A stretch of DNA of 64,000 nt from the IMG/VR virus record IMGVR_UViG_3300000154_000005; one strand, given 5' to 3'. The notes beneath the pieces were generated by a model, which saw nothing but the letters and a program-made list of their open reading frames with translations, made no database searches and had not been told where the DNA came from. Below are positions 1-58,284 of this stretch, piece by piece. Both the position numbers and the translations under genes were made by a program. Source of the DNA: an uncultured virus (IMG/VR IMGVR_UViG_3300000154_000005) (lineage: Duplodnaviria > Heunggongvirae > Uroviricota > Caudoviricetes). Each line of letters opens with the position of its first letter. The first letter of the stretch is position 1.

Positions 1-54
1 GGGATTAACCCGAAGGTTAAATCTGTGAGAACTAGGACAAGTCCTAATTCTTTA

Positions 55-90
55 TATATAATATCTATATCAAATCTTTGAAAACGTGGT
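55..90 (-). promoter_or_regulatory. Phage promoter motif copy (CCACGTTTTCAAA..ATATAGATATTAT) firing toward the left window edge
   Basis: Near-identical to the copy at 372-403 and to about 17 other intergenic copies. Confidence 0.7.
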
Positions 91-99
91 GATGTAAAA

Positions 100-368
100 A
101 CAAGTAAAAAATGCGCCCTACCGAAGTAGCAACTCTGATGCCGAAGCAACAGCCCATTTTACCAGTTATACCAGCCCGAAAGATAACAAATCTTTCGTAT
201 TTACTTTTCCTATCAGAACAACAGGCACAGTATAAAAGGCGCCTAATGAATTATTAACTTTTCTAATTTCCGAAGAAACTAAATCTATTAATAATTCACT
301 AAACTATTCAATTCCGAAGAACTAAAGGCGCATGGAGAAAAAAGACCATTAAAATGACCCTGATTCCA
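100..368 (-). ncRNA. Unassigned structured non-coding RNA (about 260 nt)
   Basis: No ORF; promoter motif immediately upstream; closing helix 111-117/327-333; four C(UUCG)G-capped hairpins on the minus strand; U-tract after the closing helix. Confidence 0.7.
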
Positions 369-371
369 ATA

Positions 372-403
372 TATTATATCTATATTAAATTTTTGAAAAC
401 GTG
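372..403 (-). promoter_or_regulatory. Phage promoter motif copy
   Basis: Minus strand CCACGTTTTCAAAAATTTAATATAGATATAAT. Confidence 0.75.
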
Positions 404-5806: not shown

Positions 5807-6149
5807 CTTTTTAACATCCAGTAACGTTTAGTAAAACAACATCCATTCGGATTCTCACAACAACTAATAAATGGATAAATAATTGGTAACACTACAATAT
5901 AACAACATATTGCCGTTATCAATAAAAACATTATACAAAAATCTTTAATAAAAGTTAACATTAATTTAAAATCCAAGTCCTTAATCTATAGGCACTATCA
6001 ACAATAATAGCTGAAAACATATGAAACATTACAAAAAATACACCCACGGGGTAGAATAAAAACGACAGCATCTCTTTCATTTTATTTCCTTGATATTATG
6101 ATTGGTTACTAAAAGGTATTATATCTATATATTATAATTGAAAATCAAA

Positions 6150-6540
6150 TAAAAACGGTAGTTACTTTCCACTACCAAGTCACGCCTGTTTATTTAATAC
6201 GGCAAGCTTTAACCTTGTCATTGGTCTCAACTCCTCGACGTCCAGCGCAAACATATGTATCGATTTCTATCTAGAACTGACAAATTCTAGTTAATAAGAA
6301 ACGATTGACACAGTGGTCGGCGGCCAGTCCTTTTAAATTAATTAGTCATAGTTGGAGGAATGTGTTTATTTTTGTATATCACACTCCTCCAACTGTAAAT
6401 GGTGGCAACACCCATGCTGTCGCGCTAACAGTAAGTGTGTATAGCGTACATTATTTTATTGGAATGGATGAAAGAGCTTATCCTCTCATCTTTACTGACT
6501 ATATGTCAGTCCGCAGGAAGTTCAGCCACCCTTTCTTCCA
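6150..6540 (-). ncRNA. Unassigned structured non-coding RNA (about 390 nt)
   Basis: Promoter motif at 6545-6575; GC-richer than flanks; many helices; ends in a hairpin plus U-tract (6151-6176); no long minus-strand ORF. Confidence 0.7.
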
Positions 6541-6572
6541 ATTTATTATATCTATATCAAATTATTGAAAAC

Positions 6573-12539: not shown

Positions 12540-12579
12540 TTACAGATTAAATTTACTCCATTAAATGGTGTGTTTTTAC

Positions 12580-12600
12580 ATATTTTATATAGATATAATA
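12580..12600 (+). promoter_or_regulatory. Plus-strand promoter motif copy
   Basis: TATAGATATAAT upstream of the lone plus-strand gene. Confidence 0.7.
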
Positions 12601-12638
12601 AATTGTGATCATGCCTTACTATTTTATTGGAGACTCAT

Positions 12639-12818
12639 ATGTCTGATGCAAAATCGAAGAACCCATCAAAACAAGCAGCGACTCCTGGAACAACGCCCCA
12701 CTGGAGTGATTTTTGTCATCGACATAATGTGTCGATTCCAAAAGGAACAAAGACGAGTAAAGTGACTCGTCCAGGTAAAACATACGCCAAGCGACATGGT
12801 TTAACCTGTTCCCAATAG
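12639..12818 (+). CDS. Small basic hypothetical protein
   Basis: GGAG ribosome binding site before ATG (MSDAKSK); own promoter motif and downstream terminator. Confidence 0.65.
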   Translation: MSDAKSKNPSKQAATPGTTPHWSDFCHRHNVSIPKGTKTSKVTRPGKTYAKRHGLTCSQ

Positions 12819-12827
12819 TTTGAGTGG

Positions 12828-12862
12828 TTGGGTGGGATATTAATTTATCTCACCCAATTTTT
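12828..12862. terminator. Terminator hairpin between convergent genes
   Basis: ttgggtgggata/tatctcacccaa followed by a T-run. Confidence 0.75.
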
Positions 12863-13206
12863 TATTTGTCTTCAAAGAATGTAGATAGATGTTTCCGTAG
12901 GGAAGTTATATTATCGATAAACCAGAAATTCTCTCCTTTATCTTCTACCCATTTTCGTTTAGTATCTATTTTCTTTAAATAATGTTTACTTGTATATGAG
13001 GAACACTCTACCCATGCTTTATATTCTTCGAAATAAAAATCACAGGTATGTTTTCTTCCATCAGAATGATACTTTTTCTGACGTGAAAAATTAGATCTAT
13101 CAAAATATTCTAATAGTACTTGAAATACTCCTATTTCAAATTTAGAATGGAAGATTTCACCATTGAATGGTATTTTCCTACTTCTCTTATTTCTTCTTCG
13201 TCTCAT
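12862..13206 (-). CDS. PD-(D/E)XK-like endonuclease
   Basis: HSKFE..., CDFYF...WVEC pattern. Confidence 0.55.
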   Translation of the reverse strand: MRRRRNKRSRKIPFNGEIFHSKFEIGVFQVLLEYFDRSNFSRQKKYHSDGRKHTCDFYFEEYKAWVECSSYTSKHYLKKIDTKRKWVEDKGENFWFIDNITSLRKHLSTFFEDK

Positions 13207-14942: not shown

Positions 14943-14955
14943 AATTAAGACTAGT

Positions 14956-15078
14956 TTAGAAACAAATAGTATCAATACCATCCATTTCATACTTTACCGG
15001 ATTTTCCGGCTTAGGTTTTTCTTGGCAAAGACAAGTTGCACATGTTTCTTCACAGTCACACATATCTTTTGATTCCAT
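14956..15078 (-). CDS. Small Cys-rich peptide
   Basis: GAGGAG ribosome binding site before MESKDMCDC; promoter motif at about 15125. Confidence 0.45.
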   Translation of the reverse strand: MESKDMCDCEETCATCLCQEKPKPENPVKYEMDGIDTICF

Positions 15079-15191
15079 CTTACTCTCCTCTGAGTTAATT
15101 AACAGACGTTTTTGATACTTATTTATATCTATATCAAAACTTTGAAAAAATTGTTTCTGACTCATATTAGTAATCCCGCCGTTAACATTAT

Positions 15192-39484: not shown

Positions 39485-41401
39485 TTAGTTTTCGTTTATA
39501 AATACCATTAAACTATCAATGATGGTTTTGGTATATGATTTAGATTTATCATTTGGTAAATTATAGGTTCCAGTATTAAGCATTTGATTAACTAAGTCTG
39601 ATTTCAGATGTAACGCATCAGACTTTACAGTTCTAATCTCTTTAACTGCTTGTATAGCATCATGACCAAGTAGTGCGTCGAATTCCATATTGCCAATTCT
39701 AGATGCTTTACCAATACTACTTTTACCTTTAATAGTAGGGGTTTTGCTACTAGCACTATATTCTCCCCAGTCTCTAGCATTTAACTTACTTTCTGATAAC
39801 TGCATAAGTTTAAGTGTATATATTGGAGCATTGAAAATATCTTTATATATTACATCTTTAGTTGGTAATGCAATATCATTTTCTAATTGTAATTTTGTTC
39901 TCATATATGTAAGAAGTTCTTTGGATGCTGTTATATTATCATTAGGAGTAACATCAAACAACTCTTTAACAGTATCGTAAATTTCTTTAGTATCAAAATT
40001 AGTAAATCCTGGTACTTCAAAGTATAACCCACCAATCTCTACAGATCTAATAAATTTATCTAATAGTTGTTGATTGGTTTTAACAGTTTCTAGTAATTCT
40101 CTTATTTCAATACTATATTTAGTCGTACCAATAGCGTCTGATAATTTAGCAATATTTTCAAGAGGGGCGAAAACATCGCCATTCTTAATTTGTTCTTCTG
40201 CCTTTCGTATTGCTTTTCCTATGAGACCTTCTAGTAGTTGTCCTAAGTTCATTCTACTGAATACTGAGAGCGGACTAAGTATCATATCAATGGGGTTACC
40301 AGAATTATCCAATGGTCGTAACTCATCTGGTATTATTAAAGATACAACACCTTTATTTGCAAAGCGATTAGCGAATTTATCTCCTACTTCAGTTGCACTA
40401 TCTTTGATTAAATCAATCTCCAATACTGCAATTAAATCATTTGTCTTTATAGATGGTTTCAACATTATATAATGGTTACTGATTAGTTTCTTAGCATAAT
40501 CTTTTCCAAGTAATGAAGCAACATCCTGGTATATCTGTGCATTATTGATTTTATATTCAGAACATAACATATCTACTATTGTTTGTAGATTTGGATCTAA
40601 TGCTTTTATATTGGGATTAATTCTATGTGCCTTAATTCTAGATATTTTTGCATTGTTTAATTTTGATAGTATGTGTTGACTATTAAACTGGAAGTCATTA
40701 TCTCCAATCAAACTGAAATCTACTAAGTTTAATGATTGAAGAACTTGTTTTTTATTTGAACTTCTTGGAATGTATTCAGTTGATAATATTCGTTTATTTA
40801 TCTCTTGCCCAACTTCAGGTATGAATTGGTATTTACTATCTTTATATAGACTTTTTAATAATGTATGACTATATATAGGAATTGTTATCGTTTCTTTCTT
40901 TAGAGAGCGACAAAGATGACTTAGACTTTCACTGATAACCACGGCATCTTCATAGTTAAATCCCATCCAAGGCATGAAAGCAACATTCACATTATATCCG
41001 TAGCAGGGGGTATTTTCGATGAAATTATCATATTCGAAAAGTAAATCCCCTTTTTCAAATTCTCCTGGATCTCTTTTATATCTAAGTTTACTTCCAAAAC
41101 TAAAAGCAGTAGACATTACAGTTGGTATTTCAAATACTTCTATTTTAAGATCTGGTTTATTATCAAATACAACCACCATAATATCATCATTTGTATATAC
41201 AATATTTCCAGACACACCGGCTACTTTTTTAGACATAGCTGTACTATGAGATAAATATTTCCAATCATCTCCAATTACATATGGTCGGCGACAATTAACA
41301 TGTGTAACACATTGCCCTAGTTGTTTAGAAGACATCTGTAGTCTAGTTGAATCCGTTAATGATATTAATGGAATTGATGAAAGTGCAGATGATATAATCA
41401 T
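39485..41401 (-). CDS. rpoB: RNAP-2 beta C-terminal subunit
   Basis: DSTRLQMSSKQLGQ, GFNYEDAVVIS, GDKFANRFANKGVVS, SRMNLGQ, RIGNMEFDAL. Confidence 0.93.
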   Translation of the reverse strand: MIISSALSSIPLISLTDSTRLQMSSKQLGQCVTHVNCRRPYVIGDDWKYLSHSTAMSKKVAGVSGNIVYTNDDIMVVVFDNKPDLKIEVFEIPTVMSTAFSFGSKLRYKRDPGEFEKGDLLFEYDNFIENTPCYGYNVNVAFMPWMGFNYEDAVVISESLSHLCRSLKKETITIPIYSHTLLKSLYKDSKYQFIPEVGQEINKRILSTEYIPRSSNKKQVLQSLNLVDFSLIGDNDFQFNSQHILSKLNNAKISRIKAHRINPNIKALDPNLQTIVDMLCSEYKINNAQIYQDVASLLGKDYAKKLISNHYIMLKPSIKTNDLIAVLEIDLIKDSATEVGDKFANRFANKGVVSLIIPDELRPLDNSGNPIDMILSPLSVFSRMNLGQLLEGLIGKAIRKAEEQIKNGDVFAPLENIAKLSDAIGTTKYSIEIRELLETVKTNQQLLDKFIRSVEIGGLYFEVPGFTNFDTKEIYDTVKELFDVTPNDNITASKELLTYMRTKLQLENDIALPTKDVIYKDIFNAPIYTLKLMQLSESKLNARDWGEYSASSKTPTIKGKSSIGKASRIGNMEFDALLGHDAIQAVKEIRTVKSDALHLKSDLVNQMLNTGTYNLPNDKSKSYTKTIIDSLMVFINEN

Positions 41402-42481
41402 TTATTCTTCCTTATTTAAGTATTCCCATTTAAACCCGCCGGCTGTTTTAATTTTTTTTGTTAAACAATTCGTAATTGTTGATATATTTAGTTCTTTTTT
41501 AGCTTTAGTTTGTGAACACCATGTTTTAATTATTTTTCCAGTTTTTAAATCTATTTGATTAATAGGCTTATTTGTTGTTCTTCTAGATAATTTAACCGGG
41601 GTTTCTGTATCAAAACAAAAGCCAAACCCTCTGCTTGATTTTCTTTTATTATTACAAATATTTGATATATTAGATACTGGTATTTTTAAGATATCTTCTA
41701 TCTGGGTCATTGAATCCCATACTTTAATTACTTCTAATGTTTTTAAATTGTACTGCTTAATTTTTCTTATTTTATTATTACTATATATTATAGGGGAGTC
41801 ATTAATATGACACCATCCAAATCCACCGGCCGATTTAATTTGTCCATTGACACATGATGAAATATTAGTAATCTTTAAAAGATCTCTTGCTTCGATAATA
41901 GAATCCCATACTTTAATTACTTCTAATGTTTTTAAATCATACTGTTTAACTTTTGTTAAACATAAATTAGTATATATGGGTGGGGCATCATCAATAAAAC
42001 ACCACCCATATCCACCACATGATTTAAAGTCTTCTGGATTTCTACAACAAGCAGATATATTAACTCTGTTATTATTAGTTTCTATAGATGCTTCTGTTAT
42101 CGATTTAAATATTTTAATTATTTTACCGGTCTTTAAATCATATTGTTTAACTTGTTTTGTATTTGCACCAGAAGAACCTTCTCCACCAAGAGTCATATTA
42201 TATCCATTACTATCTTCAAAATTAACATAAGTACGGAATCTTAATATTTCATCTTGTTCTATCTCTAATAATTCTTTTTCCGTTACTAATCCTGTATAGT
42301 CATAAATTTTAAAGTCGAAATTATCTATACCATATTTACGAATGGCTCTATGGAAAATACAATCAGATCCATTATTAACATCTTCCATATGTCTTTGTTT
42401 CCGTTTTTCAACAGATCCGATTGTTTTCCCTATATATTGTTTGCCATTTATTCTATTTATAAATTTATATATAATTCTCAT
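41402..42481 (-). CDS. Free-standing GIY-YIG homing endonuclease with NUMOD1 repeats
   Basis: IIYKFINRINGKQYIGKT, GYNMTLGGEG, four VKQYDLKT..SITEA..SAGGFxW-type repeats. Confidence 0.9.
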   Translation of the reverse strand: MRIIYKFINRINGKQYIGKTIGSVEKRKQRHMEDVNNGSDCIFHRAIRKYGIDNFDFKIYDYTGLVTEKELLEIEQDEILRFRTYVNFEDSNGYNMTLGGEGSSGANTKQVKQYDLKTGKIIKIFKSITEASIETNNNRVNISACCRNPEDFKSCGGYGWCFIDDAPPIYTNLCLTKVKQYDLKTLEVIKVWDSIIEARDLLKITNISSCVNGQIKSAGGFGWCHINDSPIIYSNNKIRKIKQYNLKTLEVIKVWDSMTQIEDILKIPVSNISNICNNKRKSSRGFGFCFDTETPVKLSRRTTNKPINQIDLKTGKIIKTWCSQTKAKKELNISTITNCLTKKIKTAGGFKWEYLNKEE

Positions 42482-43958: not shown

Positions 43959-44143
43959 TCATCCCTCATTGAAGTATAAAATTCGCATAATCCATTCCAT
44001 TTAACAATAGGAGTTGTAGGTGGTTCTACAACACACACATAATCAAGAGTCATTGCTAGCATATAATTATTACAATTACTACAACAATTCGAAAGTTCAA
44101 TATCTATGATTCTATAAGAATCTAACCTTTTATTTTTCATCAT
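43955..44143 (-). CDS. Small Cys-rich hypothetical protein
   Basis: CSNC..C..C pattern like 4551-4772. Confidence 0.5.
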   Translation of the reverse strand: MMKNKRLDSYRIIDIELSNCCSNCNNYMLAMTLDYVCVVEPPTTPIVKWNGLCEFYTSMRDE

Positions 44144-44414
44144 CTTCCCTTTGACAAGCTTCTATAAATCCAAGATCCATACTGACTAAATTTACTCTCT
44201 GTGGTCCAAATTCCCAACACATATACCCAAACCACTTATATGAGGGAGCGTTTTTAACAGTATTCCATTTCATTTTTAATATTACAGGGTCTTTATAATT
44301 AGTTAAGTATATATCCTCTAATATTTCTATATTGGGTTTAGAGACACCTAAATAATATAAGATAAAATTTCGGGTAGCCCTCATTTGAGGCCTATATGTT
44401 CTAGTTCTCATCAT
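44130..44414 (-). CDS. Hypothetical protein, paralog of 44411-44698
   Basis: RNFIL..GV..IE.L.DIY..LKMKWNT shared. Confidence 0.6.
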   Translation of the reverse strand: MMRTRTYRPQMRATRNFILYYLGVSKPNIEILEDIYLTNYKDPVILKMKWNTVKNAPSYKWFGYMCWEFGPQRVNLVSMDLGFIEACQREDDEK

Positions 44415-46096: not shown

Positions 46097-46174
46097 TGGT
46101 ACTCCAGGCCGGACTCGAACCGTATGCACTCGGCCCGTTATGAGCGGGCGGCTTTACCTTTAAGCTACTGGAGT
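46097..46174 (-). tRNA. tRNA with CAU anticodon (Ile2 or Met), atypical T-arm
   Basis: ACTCCAG/CTGGAGT acceptor stem; CTCATAA loop; CCA end; promoter motif directly upstream. Confidence 0.85.
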
Positions 46175-46210
46175 AAAAATTATAATATCTATATTAGATC
46201 TTTTAAAACG

Positions 46211-46768: not shown

Positions 46769-47089
46769 TTAATTTAACTCCAATAATTCTCTAGTTATTT
46801 CATTTTTAAAATTAGACTCGGATTCAGTTTCTAGTAATACTGTTAATATCTGTTTTTTTATAACTTGATCCAATACTGGGCCATTTCTCTTTAATGATTT
46901 ATACATAGGATAACCATTAATATCAATCATTGAACATATTAATCCAATACCAACAAGATGAGTATTTGGAATATATATTGTTTTCCCTTTAATTTCTAAA
47001 GTATAATCATTATTTTCAGAAGTACCTTCGACCGAAGCCGAAGGCATTTCATCAAGGCTCAATAGATCAGAATGATCACATTTTGCCAT
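46769..47089 (-). CDS. Hypothetical protein
   Basis: Ends KNEITRELLELN. Confidence 0.55.
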   Translation of the reverse strand: MAKCDHSDLLSLDEMPSASVEGTSENNDYTLEIKGKTIYIPNTHLVGIGLICSMIDINGYPMYKSLKRNGPVLDQVIKKQILTVLLETESESNFKNEITRELLELN

Positions 47090-48281
47090 ACAACCCTTCT
47101 TTTAGTGACTCGTGAAGATTTGCAACATTATGCATTTGTCCATCATATTCAATTTCTTCATCACCAGATAATTCAACAGTTGAACCATCTTCAAGATTAA
47201 ATCTATATTTCTGCTTTGCTAATTCATCTTTCTTTACTAATACGCCTACTTGACCACCGTCAGGATTATGTCTATATGCTGCTAATCCTTTAAGTCCTTG
47301 TTCGTAAGCATACATATATAAATCTTGAAATTTCTCATATGGATAATCAGTAGGGATATTTACAGTTTTACTGATACTTGAATCAATCCATCGTTGAGCT
47401 GCGGCTTGCATATCAATATGTTCTTTTGGAGAAACATCATGCGCAGCTACAAAGTAATCAGGTAATCCATTAGCAATAATATCTTCAATCTTATTATCTA
47501 CTACTGTATGGGGGTTATCAGTATTATCTAGAAATTCTTTATATTTTAGAATTTCATAACTATAAACATCTACCATATCTTTAGTATTTTTACCTTCTTT
47601 AATAATATTACGTTGATAATAATGACTAAATGATGGTTCAATTCCATTACTGCAATTATTAAAGAAACTTAAACTAATAGTACCTGTTGGTGCAATACTA
47701 GTAGCATGACTAAATCTACAACCATATGCTCCAATATCATCTACTAACTGTTTTGGAAAATCTTTAAAATACTTCGAAGATGCCATAAGCCAACTACCTT
47801 TAACTTCCCCTTCTTTTGGAGAACTTAAACTAATATAGTCAGAATCCATACCAGCTTCTTCTAAACGATTTTCAATTTCAAAATTAATTGGAAATGTTTC
47901 AAGTAAAATAGGAGCAGCACCTTTTTCTTTTGCTAATTCAACACCAGTTTCATAACTTTGAATTGCCATAATCTTAGTTATTTTTTCTGTGAATTTAATA
48001 GCAGTTGGTGAGCCATATTTAGTTTTTAACATACATAGTGTACTTCCAAGTCCAGCAATACCCAGACCATGTCTGCGTTTTCTATATAGTTCTTTCTGTT
48101 GCTCATCTAATGGGAGTCCATTAATTTCAACAACATTATCTAAGAATCTTGTAGCAATAGCGATGACTTTCTTAAACTTTTCACTATCAAATTGCGGATT
48201 AATACTAAATGGGTTATTAACAAAATGAGTTAAATTAATAGAGCCAAGTAAGCATGCTCCATGGGCGGGTAAACCTTGTTC
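47076..48281 (-). CDS. nrdJ: Class II (B12-dependent) ribonucleotide reductase NrdJa, exon 2
   Basis: EQGLP..ACLLGSINL, RRHGLG, SIAPTGTIS, DSSISKTVN. Confidence 0.93.
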   Translation of the reverse strand, partial: EQGLPAHGACLLGSINLTHFVNNPFSINPQFDSEKFKKVIAIATRFLDNVVEINGLPLDEQQKELYRKRRHGLGIAGLGSTLCMLKTKYGSPTAIKFTEKITKIMAIQSYETGVELAKEKGAAPILLETFPINFEIENRLEEAGMDSDYISLSSPKEGEVKGSWLMASSKYFKDFPKQLVDDIGAYGCRFSHATSIAPTGTISLSFFNNCSNGIEPSFSHYYQRNIIKEGKNTKDMVDVYSYEILKYKEFLDNTDNPHTVVDNKIEDIIANGLPDYFVAAHDVSPKEHIDMQAAAQRWIDSSISKTVNIPTDYPYEKFQDLYMYAYEQGLKGLAAYRHNPDGGQVGVLVKKDELAKQKYRFNLEDGSTVELSGDEEIEYDGQMHNVANLHESLKEGLYGKM

Positions 48282-49141
48282 CAAAATGTTAACTTCTTAT
48301 TTCTAAGAAGATCGGACTATATCATCAATATGTGAATATTCTATCACATAATGTTCTGCATTCGGTAATGACATATCAACATATAATTTCGTTTTATAAT
48401 ATAGACGAGTCTTGTATTTGAAATCATCCAATATATAAGGATACACCAAAGACATAAATCTTTGTAAATGTGGTCCCATAAAACGAACTCTGTATCCATG
48501 TCCCCATGGTACTTTTATAAGTGTTGAATGGATATTAAATAAATTTAAACGATTAACTAATAATTCTAATTCTGGAATTGTAAAACTCTCTAAACAGAGA
48601 ATACCATTATTTTGAATAGTATTTTTTACTCTGTTTTTTGTATGTTTCAACGTACCATCTCCCATCCATATATGGGCAAATGCTTGCGCATCTAATCTAT
48701 TACAGATGTATGGAGTAAGTGTTTTTTTCCCATTTGGGTAAAAGATCTTGCGTAGTTTTCGAAAATAAGGATGTTTATTTGTATTGTTTAATTGATGCCC
48801 AGTAGTACTGTAATTTTTATAAAATCGTTTAGTAATACTTGAATTCACACCAGTTATTTGATCCAATACACTCTTTGTATAATCAACATATTCTTTTGAT
48901 TTATTTCCAAACCCAAATCTTTGTTCTTTTATAATATACCCATCAGATACTAAAATACCTAAAATTATTTTTTTAATCTGTTTTGATGTTAGTATTTCCA
49001 TTGGAATTACTTTCCTTTAAATTGATGTCATTACCTGTAGTCTCTGAACCTTCCTACTATTAATTAGGTTTGGCTGCTGATTACCAGTTAAGGCTTCCAG
49101 CAATTAACAGAATTTTTTAACGTGAGGCAAACAATTTACCT
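48282..49141 (-). mobile_element. Group I intron in nrdJa
   Basis: P1 GGU|..GCC; conserved AATTGCTGGAA, AATCAGCAG, TTCAGAGACTAC and GATATAGTCC segments; terminal G; splicing restores NPCG|EQ. Confidence 0.93.
48303..49001 (-). CDS. Intron-encoded LAGLIDADG homing endonuclease
   Basis: Two motifs: ILGILVSDG and FAHIWMGDG. Confidence 0.88.
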   Translation of the reverse strand: MEILTSKQIKKIILGILVSDGYIIKEQRFGFGNKSKEYVDYTKSVLDQITGVNSSITKRFYKNYSTTGHQLNNTNKHPYFRKLRKIFYPNGKKTLTPYICNRLDAQAFAHIWMGDGTLKHTKNRVKNTIQNNGILCLESFTIPELELLVNRLNLFNIHSTLIKVPWGHGYRVRFMGPHLQRFMSLVYPYILDDFKYKTRLYYKTKLYVDMSLPNAEHYVIEYSHIDDIVRSS

Positions 49142-50188
49142 ACCACACGGGTTAGTTGCTCTAATAAGTTCAGCCCACCATAGATTATTCTTATCATTAT
49201 ATTCGTCAATTAGAATAAATCCGGGATCTCCATAATCATAAGTAGATTTCATTATCTTATTATATAAATCTCGGGCTTTAACAGTTTTATATACCCTGCA
49301 AATAGCTTCTCTTTTATTTTCAGGTTCAGGAGATTCATAATATAGATGATTTTTATCGTATATTGGCCATTCTTTAGCAATAGTCTTTACTTTAGTCGGA
49401 TCCTCAGCCTTAGACATTGGAAAATATAAATCCCAATCAGCATCATCTTTAACTGCTTCCATAAAATCTTTAGTAATAAGAATGGAAATATTGAACTTGC
49501 GAAGACGACCATCTTCACGTTTAACATTAATAACTTCTTCAATATCAGGATGTGAAATTGAAAACGTCATCATCTGAGCTCCACGTCTACCGCCGGCGCT
49601 ACTAATCGTCCGACACATCGCCTCAAATATGTCGCTAAAACTCAAAGGTCCGGAGGTACTTGCCCCCACACCATTAACCATCGCACCTTTTGGGCGAAGG
49701 GTACTAAATTCATAACCGATTCCGGCACCACTTTTCAGTGTAAGTGCTGCTTGATTCAATACTTTAAAGATACCCTCCATACTATCAGGCATAGTATCTG
49801 AAACTGTGCAATTAATTAGACTTGTCCCTGGTTTATATTCTTCGGCTCCAGCATTAGCCATGATACGACCAGCGCCAAGTAGTCCATTATTTAGTGCCCA
49901 GTTAAATTGTCCTTCCCAGAATGTTACTAAATCAAAATCTCCTTCAGATTTTTTACATCCATTAGGACATGGTACATCTGGAGGTTCTGGGGCTATTAAT
50001 GGCTTTACACATACGCCTGAACCAAAGCATATATTACATTTTACTGGCATATTAACTTCTACACTAGCGACTGCTTTAGCCACTCGTCTAAATGTATCAT
50101 TTACATCTTTATCAACTTGATTTCCATGTAAATCTTTTAATTGATATTTTTGTTCATAAATAACTTTGGATGCATCTTGTAATTTCAA
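49142..50188 (-). CDS. nrdJ: Class II ribonucleotide reductase NrdJa, exon 1
   Basis: AGRIMANAG, SLINCTV, GAGIGYEFSTLRPKG, GGRRGAQM, ATNPCG. Confidence 0.93.
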
Positions 50189-51824: not shown

Positions 51825-51885
51825 ATAAATAATCCTATTTAAGAGTGATTGAATTCCATTATATCTATATCAAATTTATCAATAC

Positions 51886-58199: not shown

Positions 58200-58284
58200 T
58201 TATTTAGTCCTTAATTTATTTTTAATAAGGATTCTTATTACTACAATTGATTATATCTATATAAGATTGATGAAAACTTAAATT

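What the first reader, a model, noticed from the sequence alone, without database searches (positions are those of the whole stretch)
100..403. Unassigned UUCG-rich structured RNA gene with its own promoter
Seen: no ORF, and a promoter motif at 372-403 firing leftward. The minus-strand transcript is closed by AUGCGCC/GGCGCAU (333-327 with 117-111) and followed by a U-run. Inside are four C(UUCG)G hairpins (plus-strand cgaa at 122, 142, 271, 315), a long interrupted helix (about 244-301) and the hairpin CGAAAGAU/AUCUUUCG. A loop UUAUACU could pair with GGUAUAA as a pseudoknot. Established: C(UUCG)G is an extra-stable tetraloop and reads only on one strand. Inference: a functional multi-branch ncRNA; it does not look like tRNA, tmRNA, RNase P, 6S or a group I intron.
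Basis: partly seen in the sequence, partly recalled or inferred. Interest (0 to 1): 0.82.

Follow-up and report, generated by a model that had tools for sequence, protein, structure and literature searches.

The report
Orphan folded RNA gene, marine jumbo phage
A gene-free stretch of an uncultivated marine giant phage looks like a self-contained gene for a tightly folded RNA of about 230-270 bases that matches no known RNA family, but no relatives or transcripts could be found to prove that it works.

Summary
On the minus strand, window 111-333 folds into a 223-nt multi-branch RNA. It is closed by AUGCGCC/GGCGCAU and has a 27-bp interrupted hairpin. Four hairpins are capped by C(UUCG)G. MFE is -75.8 kcal/mol, z -5.7; the plus strand gives -42.7, z -2.8.

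Upstream lies a motif found 9 times in the window, each time between ORFs and pointing at a downstream unit. One copy sits directly before tRNA-Met and one before the tmRNA unit. After the closing helix comes U6-ACUUGUUUUUA. I saw the same tail at three other non-coding units in two related phage records.

The proposed pseudoknot is better read as an ordinary nested helix. Rfam and ARAGORN give nothing here.

No homolog turned up in any collection searched, so covariation could not be tested. The RNA-library contigs laid on the region do not settle transcription.

Best reading (0.55): a stand-alone stable phage ncRNA of a new family, in a phage clade rich in such units; mechanism unknown, scaffold or decoy guessed. 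Main rival (0.22): a cis-acting 3' stabiliser and insulator for the upstream operon.

The parts
373..398 (-). Recurrent phage promoter motif TTTCAAAnATTTnATATAGATATAAT; -10 TATAAT at 378-373; predicted start about 366-365
   Evidence: 9 matches in the window against 0.01 expected. At tRNA-Met the -10 hexamer ends 8 nt before the mature 5' end. The start site here is inferred by analogy.
334..366 (-). Predicted 5' leader with a hairpin (361-354 with 349-342) followed by UUUUUUCUCC
   Evidence: Fold of 366-96. It could also be a weak terminator for the upstream operon. An RNA-library contig covers 356-522.
327..333 (-). P1 5' strand, AUGCGCC
   Evidence: Pairs with 117-111; pair probability 0.82-1.0. 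Forbidding P1 costs 7.8 kcal/mol.
307..326 (-). P2 hairpin, 8 bp, C(UUCG)G cap (CTTCGG at 314-319)
241..304 (-). P3, AU-rich rod of 18 bp + 3x3 internal loop + 9 bp, C(UUCG)G cap (270-275); 6 G.U pairs
   Evidence: Pair probabilities 0.91-1.0. Folded alone: -23.5 kcal/mol, z -7.3 against mononucleotide shuffles.
161..240 (-). P4 domain: GCC/GGU, UUAUACUG/UGGUAUAA, GCC/GGC, a purine-rich internal loop, and the hairpin CGAAAGAU-UUGUU-AUCUUUCG (197-177)
Evidence: The outer helices have pair probability about 0.5, the inner hairpin 0.9-1.0.
135..152 (-). P5 hairpin CUG-U-UGC(UUCG)GCA-U-CAG
   Evidence: pair probability 0.5-0.75.
118..129 (-). P6 hairpin CUAC(UUCG)GUAG, flush with the P1 3' strand
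   Evidence: pair probability about 0.79.
111..117 (-). P1 3' strand, GGCGCAU
95..110 (-). 3' tail UUUUUUACUUGUUUUUA, the putative termination signal
   Evidence: UACUUGUUU preceded by a U-run and a structure also ends three other non-coding units: G001 (L021 at 4078) and G002 (L035 at 19589 and 18983). The other 7 of 11 matches in 171 kb lie in other contexts.
58..83 (-). Next copy of the promoter motif (1 mismatch), which bounds the RNA gene on its 3' side
1..50 (-). Start of a second small hairpin RNA: CUUG hairpin 31-49 and C(UUCG)G hairpin 5-20. It lies in a 93-bp module repeated 100% in G001.
   Evidence: The G001 copy runs on to a 125-nt three-hairpin unit, z -6.0. DNA depth over 1-200 is about 2.5 times that of the rest.

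Best explanation
Window 96-398 (minus strand) is a self-contained gene for a stable, non-coding phage RNA.

How the unit is built:
- Transcription starts about 7 nt downstream of the TATAAT of a recurrent phage promoter, near 366.
- A 33-nt leader forms a 5' hairpin.
- The 223-nt core (333-111) is closed by a 7-bp helix that pairs its two ends. From it radiate five branches: P2, the 27-bp rod P3, the P4 domain, P5 and P6.
- Four branch tips are C(UUCG)G tetraloops.
- The RNA ends at U6-ACUUGUUUUUA, a tail shared with other non-coding units of this phage clade.

Proposed mechanism (inferred, not shown): the RNA works in trans as a folded scaffold or decoy that binds a protein, not as an antisense regulator. 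The UUCG caps are inert folding nuclei and nuclease blocks. The paired ends protect against exonucleases. The likely working surfaces are the long AU-rich duplex P3, which is long enough for a dsRNA-binding protein or RNase III, and the purine-rich internal loop of P4.

Shown here: the sequence anatomy, the strand-specific excess of structure, the promoter recurrence and the shared 3' tail.

Inferred: the start site, termination, stability, trans action and the partner.

I put 0.55 on 'discrete functional ncRNA gene' and only about 0.2 on the scaffold/decoy mechanism.
For: Structure:
- Minus strand -75.8 kcal/mol, z -5.71, 0 of 200 shuffles as good. Plus strand -42.7, z -2.77.
- The best fold of 366-96 has 15 G.U among 89 pairs. 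These become A.C mismatches on the other strand.
- Four CTTCGG within 199 nt against 0.023 expected, each on a stem. Only 1 of the 10 CTTCGG outside 1-320 has a stem longer than 2 pairs.
- The region ranks 4th of 3190 sliding windows.
- P1 is strongly favoured: pair probability 0.82-1.0, and +7.8 kcal/mol if it is forbidden.

Promoter:
- The motif occurs 9 times in the window.
- All 9 copies lie between ORFs and point at a downstream unit: tRNA-Met, a small ORF plus tmRNA, small ORFs, ClpS, another non-coding stretch and a short unit at 58250.

The 3' end and context:
- The tail is shared with 3 other non-coding units in G001 and G002.
- G002, a 51-kb record with the same promoter motif, carries at least 5 consecutive promoter-to-terminator non-coding units. 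Such RNA genes are therefore a habit of this clade.
- A DNA unitig spans 64-1344 at the same depth as the rest of the phage (18.5 against 20.1; 28.7 against 24). The region is therefore real phage DNA.

Against antisense action:
- No complementarity to the window's transcripts above chance. There were 10 matches of 11 nt against 14.2 in shuffles, and 2 overlapping matches of 12 nt (one 13-nt stretch) against 2.6.
Against: - No homolog was found, so not one compensatory change supports the fold.
- Function and a discrete transcript are unproven.
- An RNA-library contig (X3, 356-522) runs from the upstream gene across the promoter motif. Read-through transcription therefore exists, if that contig is RNA-derived, and the unit need not depend on its own promoter.
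- The leader hairpin plus U-run (361-338) lies downstream of the predicted start and could stop transcripts early.
- The outer P4 helices, P5 and P6 have only moderate pair probabilities, 0.3-0.8.
- A mid-sequence palindrome GGCGCC (241-236) offers an alternative fold only 7.8 kcal/mol worse.
- The consensus terminator scan called nothing on the minus strand here.
Confidence: 0.55

Rival explanations
1. It is a cis-acting 3' structure rather than a gene. On this reading the cluster of hairpins ends and stabilises the upstream operon's mRNA (genes 1264-406) and insulates it from the next promoter, as C(UUCG)G hairpins do between T4 genes.
For: - The upstream genes are tightly packed and end at 406.
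- An RNA-library contig covers 356-522, across the promoter motif.
- The UUCG tetraloop was first found in T4 mRNA as an extraordinarily stable element (PMC4371310, passages read).
- A hairpin plus U-run sits at 361-338.
Against: - A 223-nt, six-way junction closed by pairing of its own ends is far more than a terminator or 3' protector needs.
- The hairpin plus U-run at 361-338 already lies upstream of it.
- A full promoter copy sits between the stop codon and the structure.
- The same promoter-RNA-tail layout occurs without any upstream gene link in the run of non-coding units in G002.
Confidence: 0.22
2. It is a very diverged member of a known RNA class that Rfam models miss in this AT-rich phage. 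Candidates are a 6S-like RNA, a packaging RNA, a Y-RNA-like RNA, or a fragment of a group I intron.
For: - The phage lineage is remote. Its RNA polymerase beta-like protein is only 22-27% identical to those of named phages.
- The window carries homing-endonuclease genes and a split ribonucleotide reductase, so introns are plausible in this genome.
Against: - No Rfam hit better than E 5.2 with permissive filters. In the same window Rfam found the tmRNA at 114.6 bits and four tRNAs.
- The fold is a closed multi-branch, not a 6S-type rod with a central bubble.
- It interrupts no gene.
Confidence: 0.07
3. It has no present function. On this reading it is a decaying mobile element or duplicated hairpin module that happens to fold.
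For: - It is an orphan: no paralog or homolog in the window, in 56 kb of G001 or in all 51 kb of G002.
- It lies next to a 93-bp module repeated elsewhere in the genome.
- It sits at the very edge of the window, which is all I can read; at least 16 more letters lie to the left of position 1 in the DNA unitigs that cover 1-83.
Against: - Decay of a DNA palindrome should give A.C mismatches on this strand as often as G.U pairs. The best fold keeps long helices with 15 G.U pairs, and the plus strand loses 33 kcal/mol.
- Four intact C(UUCG)G caps at helix tips are hard to get without selection on the RNA.
Confidence: 0.08
4. It is a DNA-level element, such as a replication origin, packaging site or protein-binding hairpins formed in single-stranded DNA.
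For: - It is a gene-free, AT-rich region with inverted repeats between promoters.
- CGAAG-type DNA mini-hairpins are known to be very stable (recalled from memory, not from a call).
Against: - The stems are in register for a four-base loop, not for the GAA triloop of the DNA mini-hairpin (read).
- G.U pairs are not available in DNA.
- DNA depth over 201-400 (24.3 and 36.9) stays close to neighbouring bins (18.5-22.9 and 28.7-29.9), so there is no sign of a terminus.
Confidence: 0.05
5. It encodes a small protein: the 48-aa ORF at 111-257 on the plus strand, or the short minus-strand ORFs.
For: Mechanical ORFs exist.
Against: - The 48-aa ORF lies opposite to 82 of the 87 long ORFs of the window.
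- It has no ribosome-binding site upstream and no PHROGs family.
- It overlaps the helices of the minus-strand fold.
Confidence: 0.02

Closest known systems
C(UUCG)G hairpins of phage T4 mRNA (PMC4371310, passages read; the original 1988 T4 paper is recalled, not read)
   Same: The same extra-stable CUUCGG hairpin cap, in a large virulent phage, on the transcribed strand, in gene-free DNA.
   Different: In T4 they are single hairpins in mRNA. Here four of them cap branches of one closed 223-nt multi-branch domain with its own promoter copy and tail.
Small stable RNAs of T4 (species 1 and 2, rnaC and rnaD) in the tRNA gene cluster (recalled from memory; not tested, not in any call)
   Same: Phage-encoded stable RNAs of 100-150 nt with unknown function, lying among tRNA genes. 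Here tRNA-Arg is 950 nt away, and the tmRNA and three more tRNAs are in the same window.
   Different: No sequence comparison was possible. The T4 RNAs are processed from a tRNA precursor, whereas this unit has its own promoter and tail.
Large phage-associated structured RNAs GOLLD and ROOL. That these are Rfam families comes from recall and from the earlier findings listed; I did not check Rfam's family list.
   Same: Elaborate multi-branch RNAs without a known function, often carried by phages and often near tRNA genes.
   Different: They are much larger (hundreds of nt) and conserved across many genomes. No Rfam match of any kind at E <= 10 other than two junk hits.
phi29 packaging RNA (pRNA) (recalled; its presence in Rfam is recalled too)
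   Same: A phage RNA of about 170 nt with its own promoter, paired 5' and 3' ends and a multi-way junction.
   Different: pRNA is known only in small phi29-like phages. The proposed loop pairing here is an ordinary nested helix. No Rfam hit.
6S RNA
   Same: A stable RNA of about 200 nt with paired ends that acts as a protein decoy, which is the kind of mechanism proposed here.
   Different: 6S is a rod with a large central bubble that mimics an open promoter. This RNA is a closed six-way junction, and no Rfam hit was found.

Membership tests
Any Rfam 15 family (4227 models) | Score at or above the family's gathering threshold | tested here: not met
   No match over 1-700 at gathering score. 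With permissive filters the best hits are MIR530 at 15.2 bits (threshold 85, E 5.2) and eeev_FSE at 13.7 bits (threshold 80, E 8.2).
tRNA / tmRNA | Cloverleaf or tRNA-like domain detected by ARAGORN or the Rfam tRNA and tmRNA models | tested here: not met
   ARAGORN finds 4 tRNAs and 1 tmRNA elsewhere in the window and none in 1-1287. Rfam agrees. P6 plus P1 form an 11-bp stack, but P6 has a 4-nt loop, not a 7-nt T-loop.
6S RNA | Long rod with a large central bubble between two irregular helices | tested here: not met
   The best fold and the centroid are a closed multi-branch with five branches.
Group I intron | Insertion within a host gene, with a conserved P3-P9 core | tested here: not met
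   It lies between a stop codon at 406 and a promoter at 58-83 and splits no ORF. No intron model matched. The core pseudoknot was not searched for by hand.
Intrinsic (rho-independent) terminator | GC-rich stem directly followed by a U-run | tested here: inconclusive
   GGCGCAU is followed directly by U6, but its partner lies 210 nt upstream. The consensus scan, which needs a loop of 3-8, calls nothing on the minus strand.
T4-type C(UUCG)G stabilising hairpin | CUUCGG on the transcribed strand at the tip of a complementary stem | tested here: met
   4 of 4 sites in 121-319, and the site at 10-15, sit on stems of 3-9 pairs.
Antisense / base-pairing sRNA | Extended complementarity of an exposed segment to a target mRNA | tested here: not met
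   Within the window only: 10 matches of 11 nt (shuffles give a mean of 14.2), 2 overlapping matches of 12 nt (shuffles 2.6) and one of 13 nt inside helix P3. Host targets could not be tested.
Conserved structured ncRNA (any new family) | Compensatory base changes across homologs | not testable with these tools
   No homolog was recovered.

The most novel reading that the evidence does not exclude
The RNA is the first described member of a new class of phage RNA genes. On this reading a clade of marine jumbo phages with their own RNA polymerase carries 'RNA islands': several promoter-to-tail units that each make a compact, UUCG-capped stable RNA. This 223-nt six-way-junction RNA would be the RNA part of a phage ribonucleoprotein, or a decoy that disarms a host RNA-binding enzyme or an RNA-sensing defence.
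Probability: 0.3. Interest if true: 0.75.

Novelty: new variant of a known kind. Interest (0 to 1): 0.5.

Why it matters
Jumbo phages with their own transcription machinery are known mostly through their proteins. Their non-coding RNAs are almost unexplored.

If this unit and its neighbours are real genes, then this marine clade spends several kilobases on stable RNAs of unknown role. The neighbours are a 390-nt candidate at 6150-6540, the small hairpin RNA at 1-50, and at least five units in G002.

The shared promoter and the shared U-run-ACUUGUUU tail would give a simple rule for finding such genes in uncultivated phages. The compact UUCG-capped design would also be a good subject for structure work.

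As it stands it is a well-formed orphan without proof of function.

Tried and rejected
Homolog searches (all empty or spurious):
- blastn, distant mode, of 90-410 against 50,697 phage records: only matches of 25-43 nt at E 0.3-4.
- Exact 20-mer in viral contigs: 0.
- Flanking ORFs 406-666 and 667-1002, and the 1441-aa polymerase subunit, in viral contigs: no relative.
- The 86-aa ORF in metagenome contigs: 1 locus, L018. It matches only 35 residues at 49% identity and lies in ORF-poor, unrelated DNA, so I treat it as spurious.
- A pattern of four spaced CTTCGG in viral contigs: 9 loci, all GC-rich coding or repeat DNA.
I scanned the 80 listed in the answer (L159-L238) with model R1. The best was L167 at 33.5 bits, then L191 at 24.8 bits in 63% GC repeat DNA.
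- L167 lies in a Woesearchaeota MAG. It is a row of five separate UUCG hairpins plus a terminator, without the closing helix, in a genome with only one promoter-motif match. The hit is biased because the pattern pre-selected for it, so I do not count it as a homolog.
- Promoter motif in viral contigs: the strict form gave 3 loci, 2 of them in G002. R1 found nothing in the 80 fetched.
- The 3' tail pattern in viral contigs: G002 plus 4 unrelated coding loci.
- R1 over the window, 56 kb of G001 and all of G002: only the query itself, plus weak partial matches: L035 19585-19632 at 14.1 bits (E 0.027), the AU-rich hairpin that ends one of G002's units, and two more at 7.6 and 5.7 bits.
- Earlier findings of this scan: nothing at this place or by sequence.

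Expression:
- Two metatranscriptomic runs of the same study were laid as contigs. No listed contig covers 94-355.

Other:
- The G002 unit that ends GGCGCC-U5-ACUUGUUU aligns with the target only at its 3' end and folds weakly (z -1.5). I read this as a shared tail, not a shared RNA.
- Search for antisense targets in the window: nothing above chance.
- Two literature searches found no paper describing such an RNA. That is only two searches.

Full report
**What the window is**

The window is AT-rich DNA with 82 of 87 long ORFs on the minus strand. It carries:
- two beta-like and two beta'-like RNA-polymerase genes;
- NAD-dependent DNA ligase, dUTPase, a ribonucleotide reductase split by a LAGLIDADG endonuclease gene, a GIY-YIG endonuclease, ClpS, Hsp20 and a KH-domain protein;
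- four tRNA genes and a tmRNA.

The largest polymerase subunit is only 22-27% identical to those of phiR1-37, phiKZ-like and PBS1-like phages. The nearest record held, G001, is 106 kb at 41% estimated completeness. The runs that hold the DNA are labelled marine metagenome. So this is an uncultivated marine jumbo phage of a poorly sampled lineage.

**The observation**

The minus strand of 95-345 folds to -75.8 kcal/mol, z -5.71, with no shuffle of 200 as good.

The core is 333-111:
- P1: AUGCGCC/GGCGCAU.
- P2: 8 bp, UUCG cap.
- P3: 18 bp, a 3x3 internal loop and 9 bp, UUCG cap.
- P4 domain: three short helices, a purine-rich internal loop and the hairpin CGAAAGAU/AUCUUUCG.
- P5 and P6: both UUCG-capped. 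P6 is flush with the 3' strand of P1.

P1, P2, P3 and the inner P4 hairpin have pair probabilities of 0.9-1.0. The outer P4 helices, P5 and P6 have 0.3-0.8.

**Strand and chance**

- The plus strand of the same stretch folds to only -42.7 kcal/mol, z -2.77.
- The best fold of the full predicted transcript has 15 G.U among 89 pairs.
- Of the 15 CTTCGG in the 64-kb window (both strands), five lie in 1-320 on the minus strand, and all five cap stems. Only one of the other ten has a stem longer than two pairs.
- Four within 199 nt has a Poisson probability of 1.2e-8, or about 8e-6 after correction for position.
- In a GC-corrected scan of 3190 windows of 230 nt, this region ranks fourth.

The structure is therefore selected at the RNA level on the minus strand.

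**Promoter**

The motif TTTCAAAnATTTnATATAGATATAAT occurs 9 times against 0.01 expected. Every copy lies between ORFs and points at a downstream unit:

| Motif copy | Strand | Downstream unit |
|---|---|---|
| 373-398 | - | the target RNA |
| 58-83 | - | a small hairpin RNA |
| 6545-6570 | - | a 390-nt non-coding stretch |
| 6118-6143 | - | a 39-aa ORF |
| 12574-12599 | + | a plus-strand small ORF with its own terminator |
| 15122-15147 | - | a 40-aa ORF followed by the tmRNA |
| 46182-46207 | - | tRNA-Met |
| 51858-51883 | - | ClpS |
| 58250-58275 | - | a short unit |

At tRNA-Met the -10 hexamer ends 8 nt before the mature 5' end. This places the start about 7 nt after the hexamer. By analogy the target RNA starts near 366, with a 33-nt leader that forms a hairpin followed by a U-run.

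The conserved upstream half sits only 13 nt from the -10 hexamer. That is not the usual sigma-70 spacing, and the consensus scan pairs TTCAAA with a non-conserved TATATT instead. Which polymerase reads this motif is unknown.

**The 3' end**

P1 is followed directly by UUUUUUACUUGUUUUUA and then by the next promoter copy.

The word UACUUGUUU occurs 11 times in the 171 kb of window, G001 and G002 that I held. Four of these follow a structure and a U-run at the end of a non-coding unit, just before another promoter: the target, one in G001 and two in G002. The other seven lie in other contexts. About 5 are expected by composition, so the count is not remarkable but the placement is.

One G002 unit even ends GGCGCC-U5-ACUUGUUU, with a GCGCC partner upstream. 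I read this as a shared 3'-end signal of RNA genes in this clade. Termination itself is inferred.

**Clade context**

G002 is a 51-kb viral record at 18% estimated completeness. It shares nothing with the window at the DNA level except promoter copies. It carries at least five consecutive promoter-to-tail non-coding units. None has an Rfam match better than E 0.035; the listed weak hits are microRNA, snoRNA, sRNA (frnS) and leader (Phe_leader) models.

In the window itself:
- A second candidate RNA of about 390 nt lies at 6150-6540 (z -5.0, classic terminator, no Rfam match).
- The 93-bp module at 1-93 is repeated 100% in G001, where it starts a 125-nt three-hairpin unit with z -6.0.

The target is thus one of several similar units. 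This raises my prior that it is a gene.

**What could not be shown**

No homolog of the RNA was found by any route (listed under Tried and rejected), so there is no covariation evidence. G001 does not cover this part of the genome. It ends at window 12816, so it says nothing about presence or absence.

DNA unitigs from two runs span 64-1344 at the same depth as the rest of the phage, so the region is genuine phage DNA. An RNA-library contig covers 356-522. If it is RNA-derived, some transcription reads from the upstream gene across the promoter motif.

**Mechanism**

No antisense target stands out within the window. UUCG caps are described as making no protein or RNA contacts (PMC4371310, passages read), so the working parts should be elsewhere. 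Candidates are:
- the 27-bp AU-rich duplex P3, which is of a size bound by dsRNA-binding proteins and RNase III (established knowledge, not tested here);
- the purine-rich internal loop of P4;
- the junction.

Paired 5' and 3' ends are typical of stable RNAs. I therefore commit to a trans-acting stable scaffold or decoy RNA, with low confidence in that last step.

The main rival is a cis-acting stabiliser and insulator for the upstream operon. It explains the UUCG hairpins and the read-through contig. It does not explain the closed six-way architecture, the promoter copy, or the gene-free runs of like units in G002.

**Known families**

It is not a member of any Rfam family, nor a tRNA, tmRNA, 6S-type rod or intron. 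In use of the tetraloop it resembles the T4 CUUCGG hairpins. In being phage-encoded stable RNAs of unknown role it resembles the T4 small stable RNAs and the GOLLD and ROOL RNAs (recalled). A large comparative screen of viral sequences reports over ten thousand candidate structured RNAs (PMC10690425, abstract and passages read). An orphan such as this one would not be found by such a comparative method.

**Verdict**

This is a real, strongly structured, strand-specific element with a credible promoter and tail. It is most likely a new orphan ncRNA gene (0.55). Function and transcript remain unproven. Interest 0.5.

Noticed in passing
window 6150-6540 (-): A second candidate ncRNA of about 390 nt lies between promoter copies 6545-6570 and 6118-6143. 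It folds to -116.8 kcal/mol, z -5.0, and ends in a classic terminator (GGUAGU...ACUACC followed by U5). Its only Rfam hits are weak microRNA, snoRNA and lncRNA models (best E 0.0059, all far below gathering score).
   Followed up: partly
window 1-93; G001 44130-44222 (L001 1428-1552): A 93-bp module (promoter copy plus CUUG and UUCG hairpins) is repeated 100% elsewhere in the genome in the opposite orientation. The G001 copy runs on to a 125-nt three-hairpin unit (z -6.0) that ends CUUUUACUUGUUUUUA. DNA depth over 1-200 is about 2.5 times the phage average, and the DNA unitigs break at this repeat.
   Followed up: partly
L022 and L023 (G002, about 38.6-40.5 kb of a 51-kb viral record): An 'RNA island': at least five consecutive units of promoter motif, 130-230 nt of non-coding sequence and a U-rich terminator. 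Rfam gives only weak hits here (best E 0.035). G002 shares only the promoter motif with the window.
   Followed up: partly
window 95-109; L021 4078; L035 19589 and 18983: The motif U-run-ACUUGUUU(U/A)U ends four non-coding units in three related phage records. It may be a clade-specific termination or 3'-processing signal.
   Followed up: partly
window 14943-15147 (-): The tmRNA (tag ANDEFYAPVALAA) is preceded by the same promoter motif and by a 40-aa cysteine-rich ORF with a good ribosome-binding site. The two appear to be co-transcribed.
   Followed up: no
window 47076-50188 (-): The large subunit of ribonucleotide reductase is in two ORFs (49136-50188 and 47076-48284) separated by a LAGLIDADG endonuclease gene (48303-49001). 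This suggests an intron or intein, but no group I intron reached Rfam's gathering score. A 10-bp hairpin with tandem CUUCGGCUUCGG lies at about 47023-47046.
   Followed up: no
window 41402-42481 (-): A GIY-YIG/NUMOD homing-endonuclease gene lies directly after an RNA-polymerase beta-like gene (39485-41401).
   Followed up: no
window 46097-46207 (-): tRNA-Met, with an encoded CCA end, starts 8 nt after the -10 hexamer of a promoter copy. It may be made with almost no 5' leader.
   Followed up: partly
L279 2905-3125 (-) (G004, Woesearchaeota MAG contig): A 220-nt intergenic row of hairpins, five of them capped by C(UUCG)G, is followed by a strong terminator in an AT-rich archaeal MAG. It has no Rfam family (TD-1 at 29.2 bits, below its threshold of 64.5). 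It resembles the target in design, but homology is not demonstrable.
   Followed up: partly
window 12574-12870 (+): This is the only plus-strand promoter copy. It drives a 59-aa ORF (starting at 12639) that ends in a terminator at about 12825-12870, and it converges on the minus-strand gene 12862-13206. G001's contig ends here, at window 12816.
   Followed up: no
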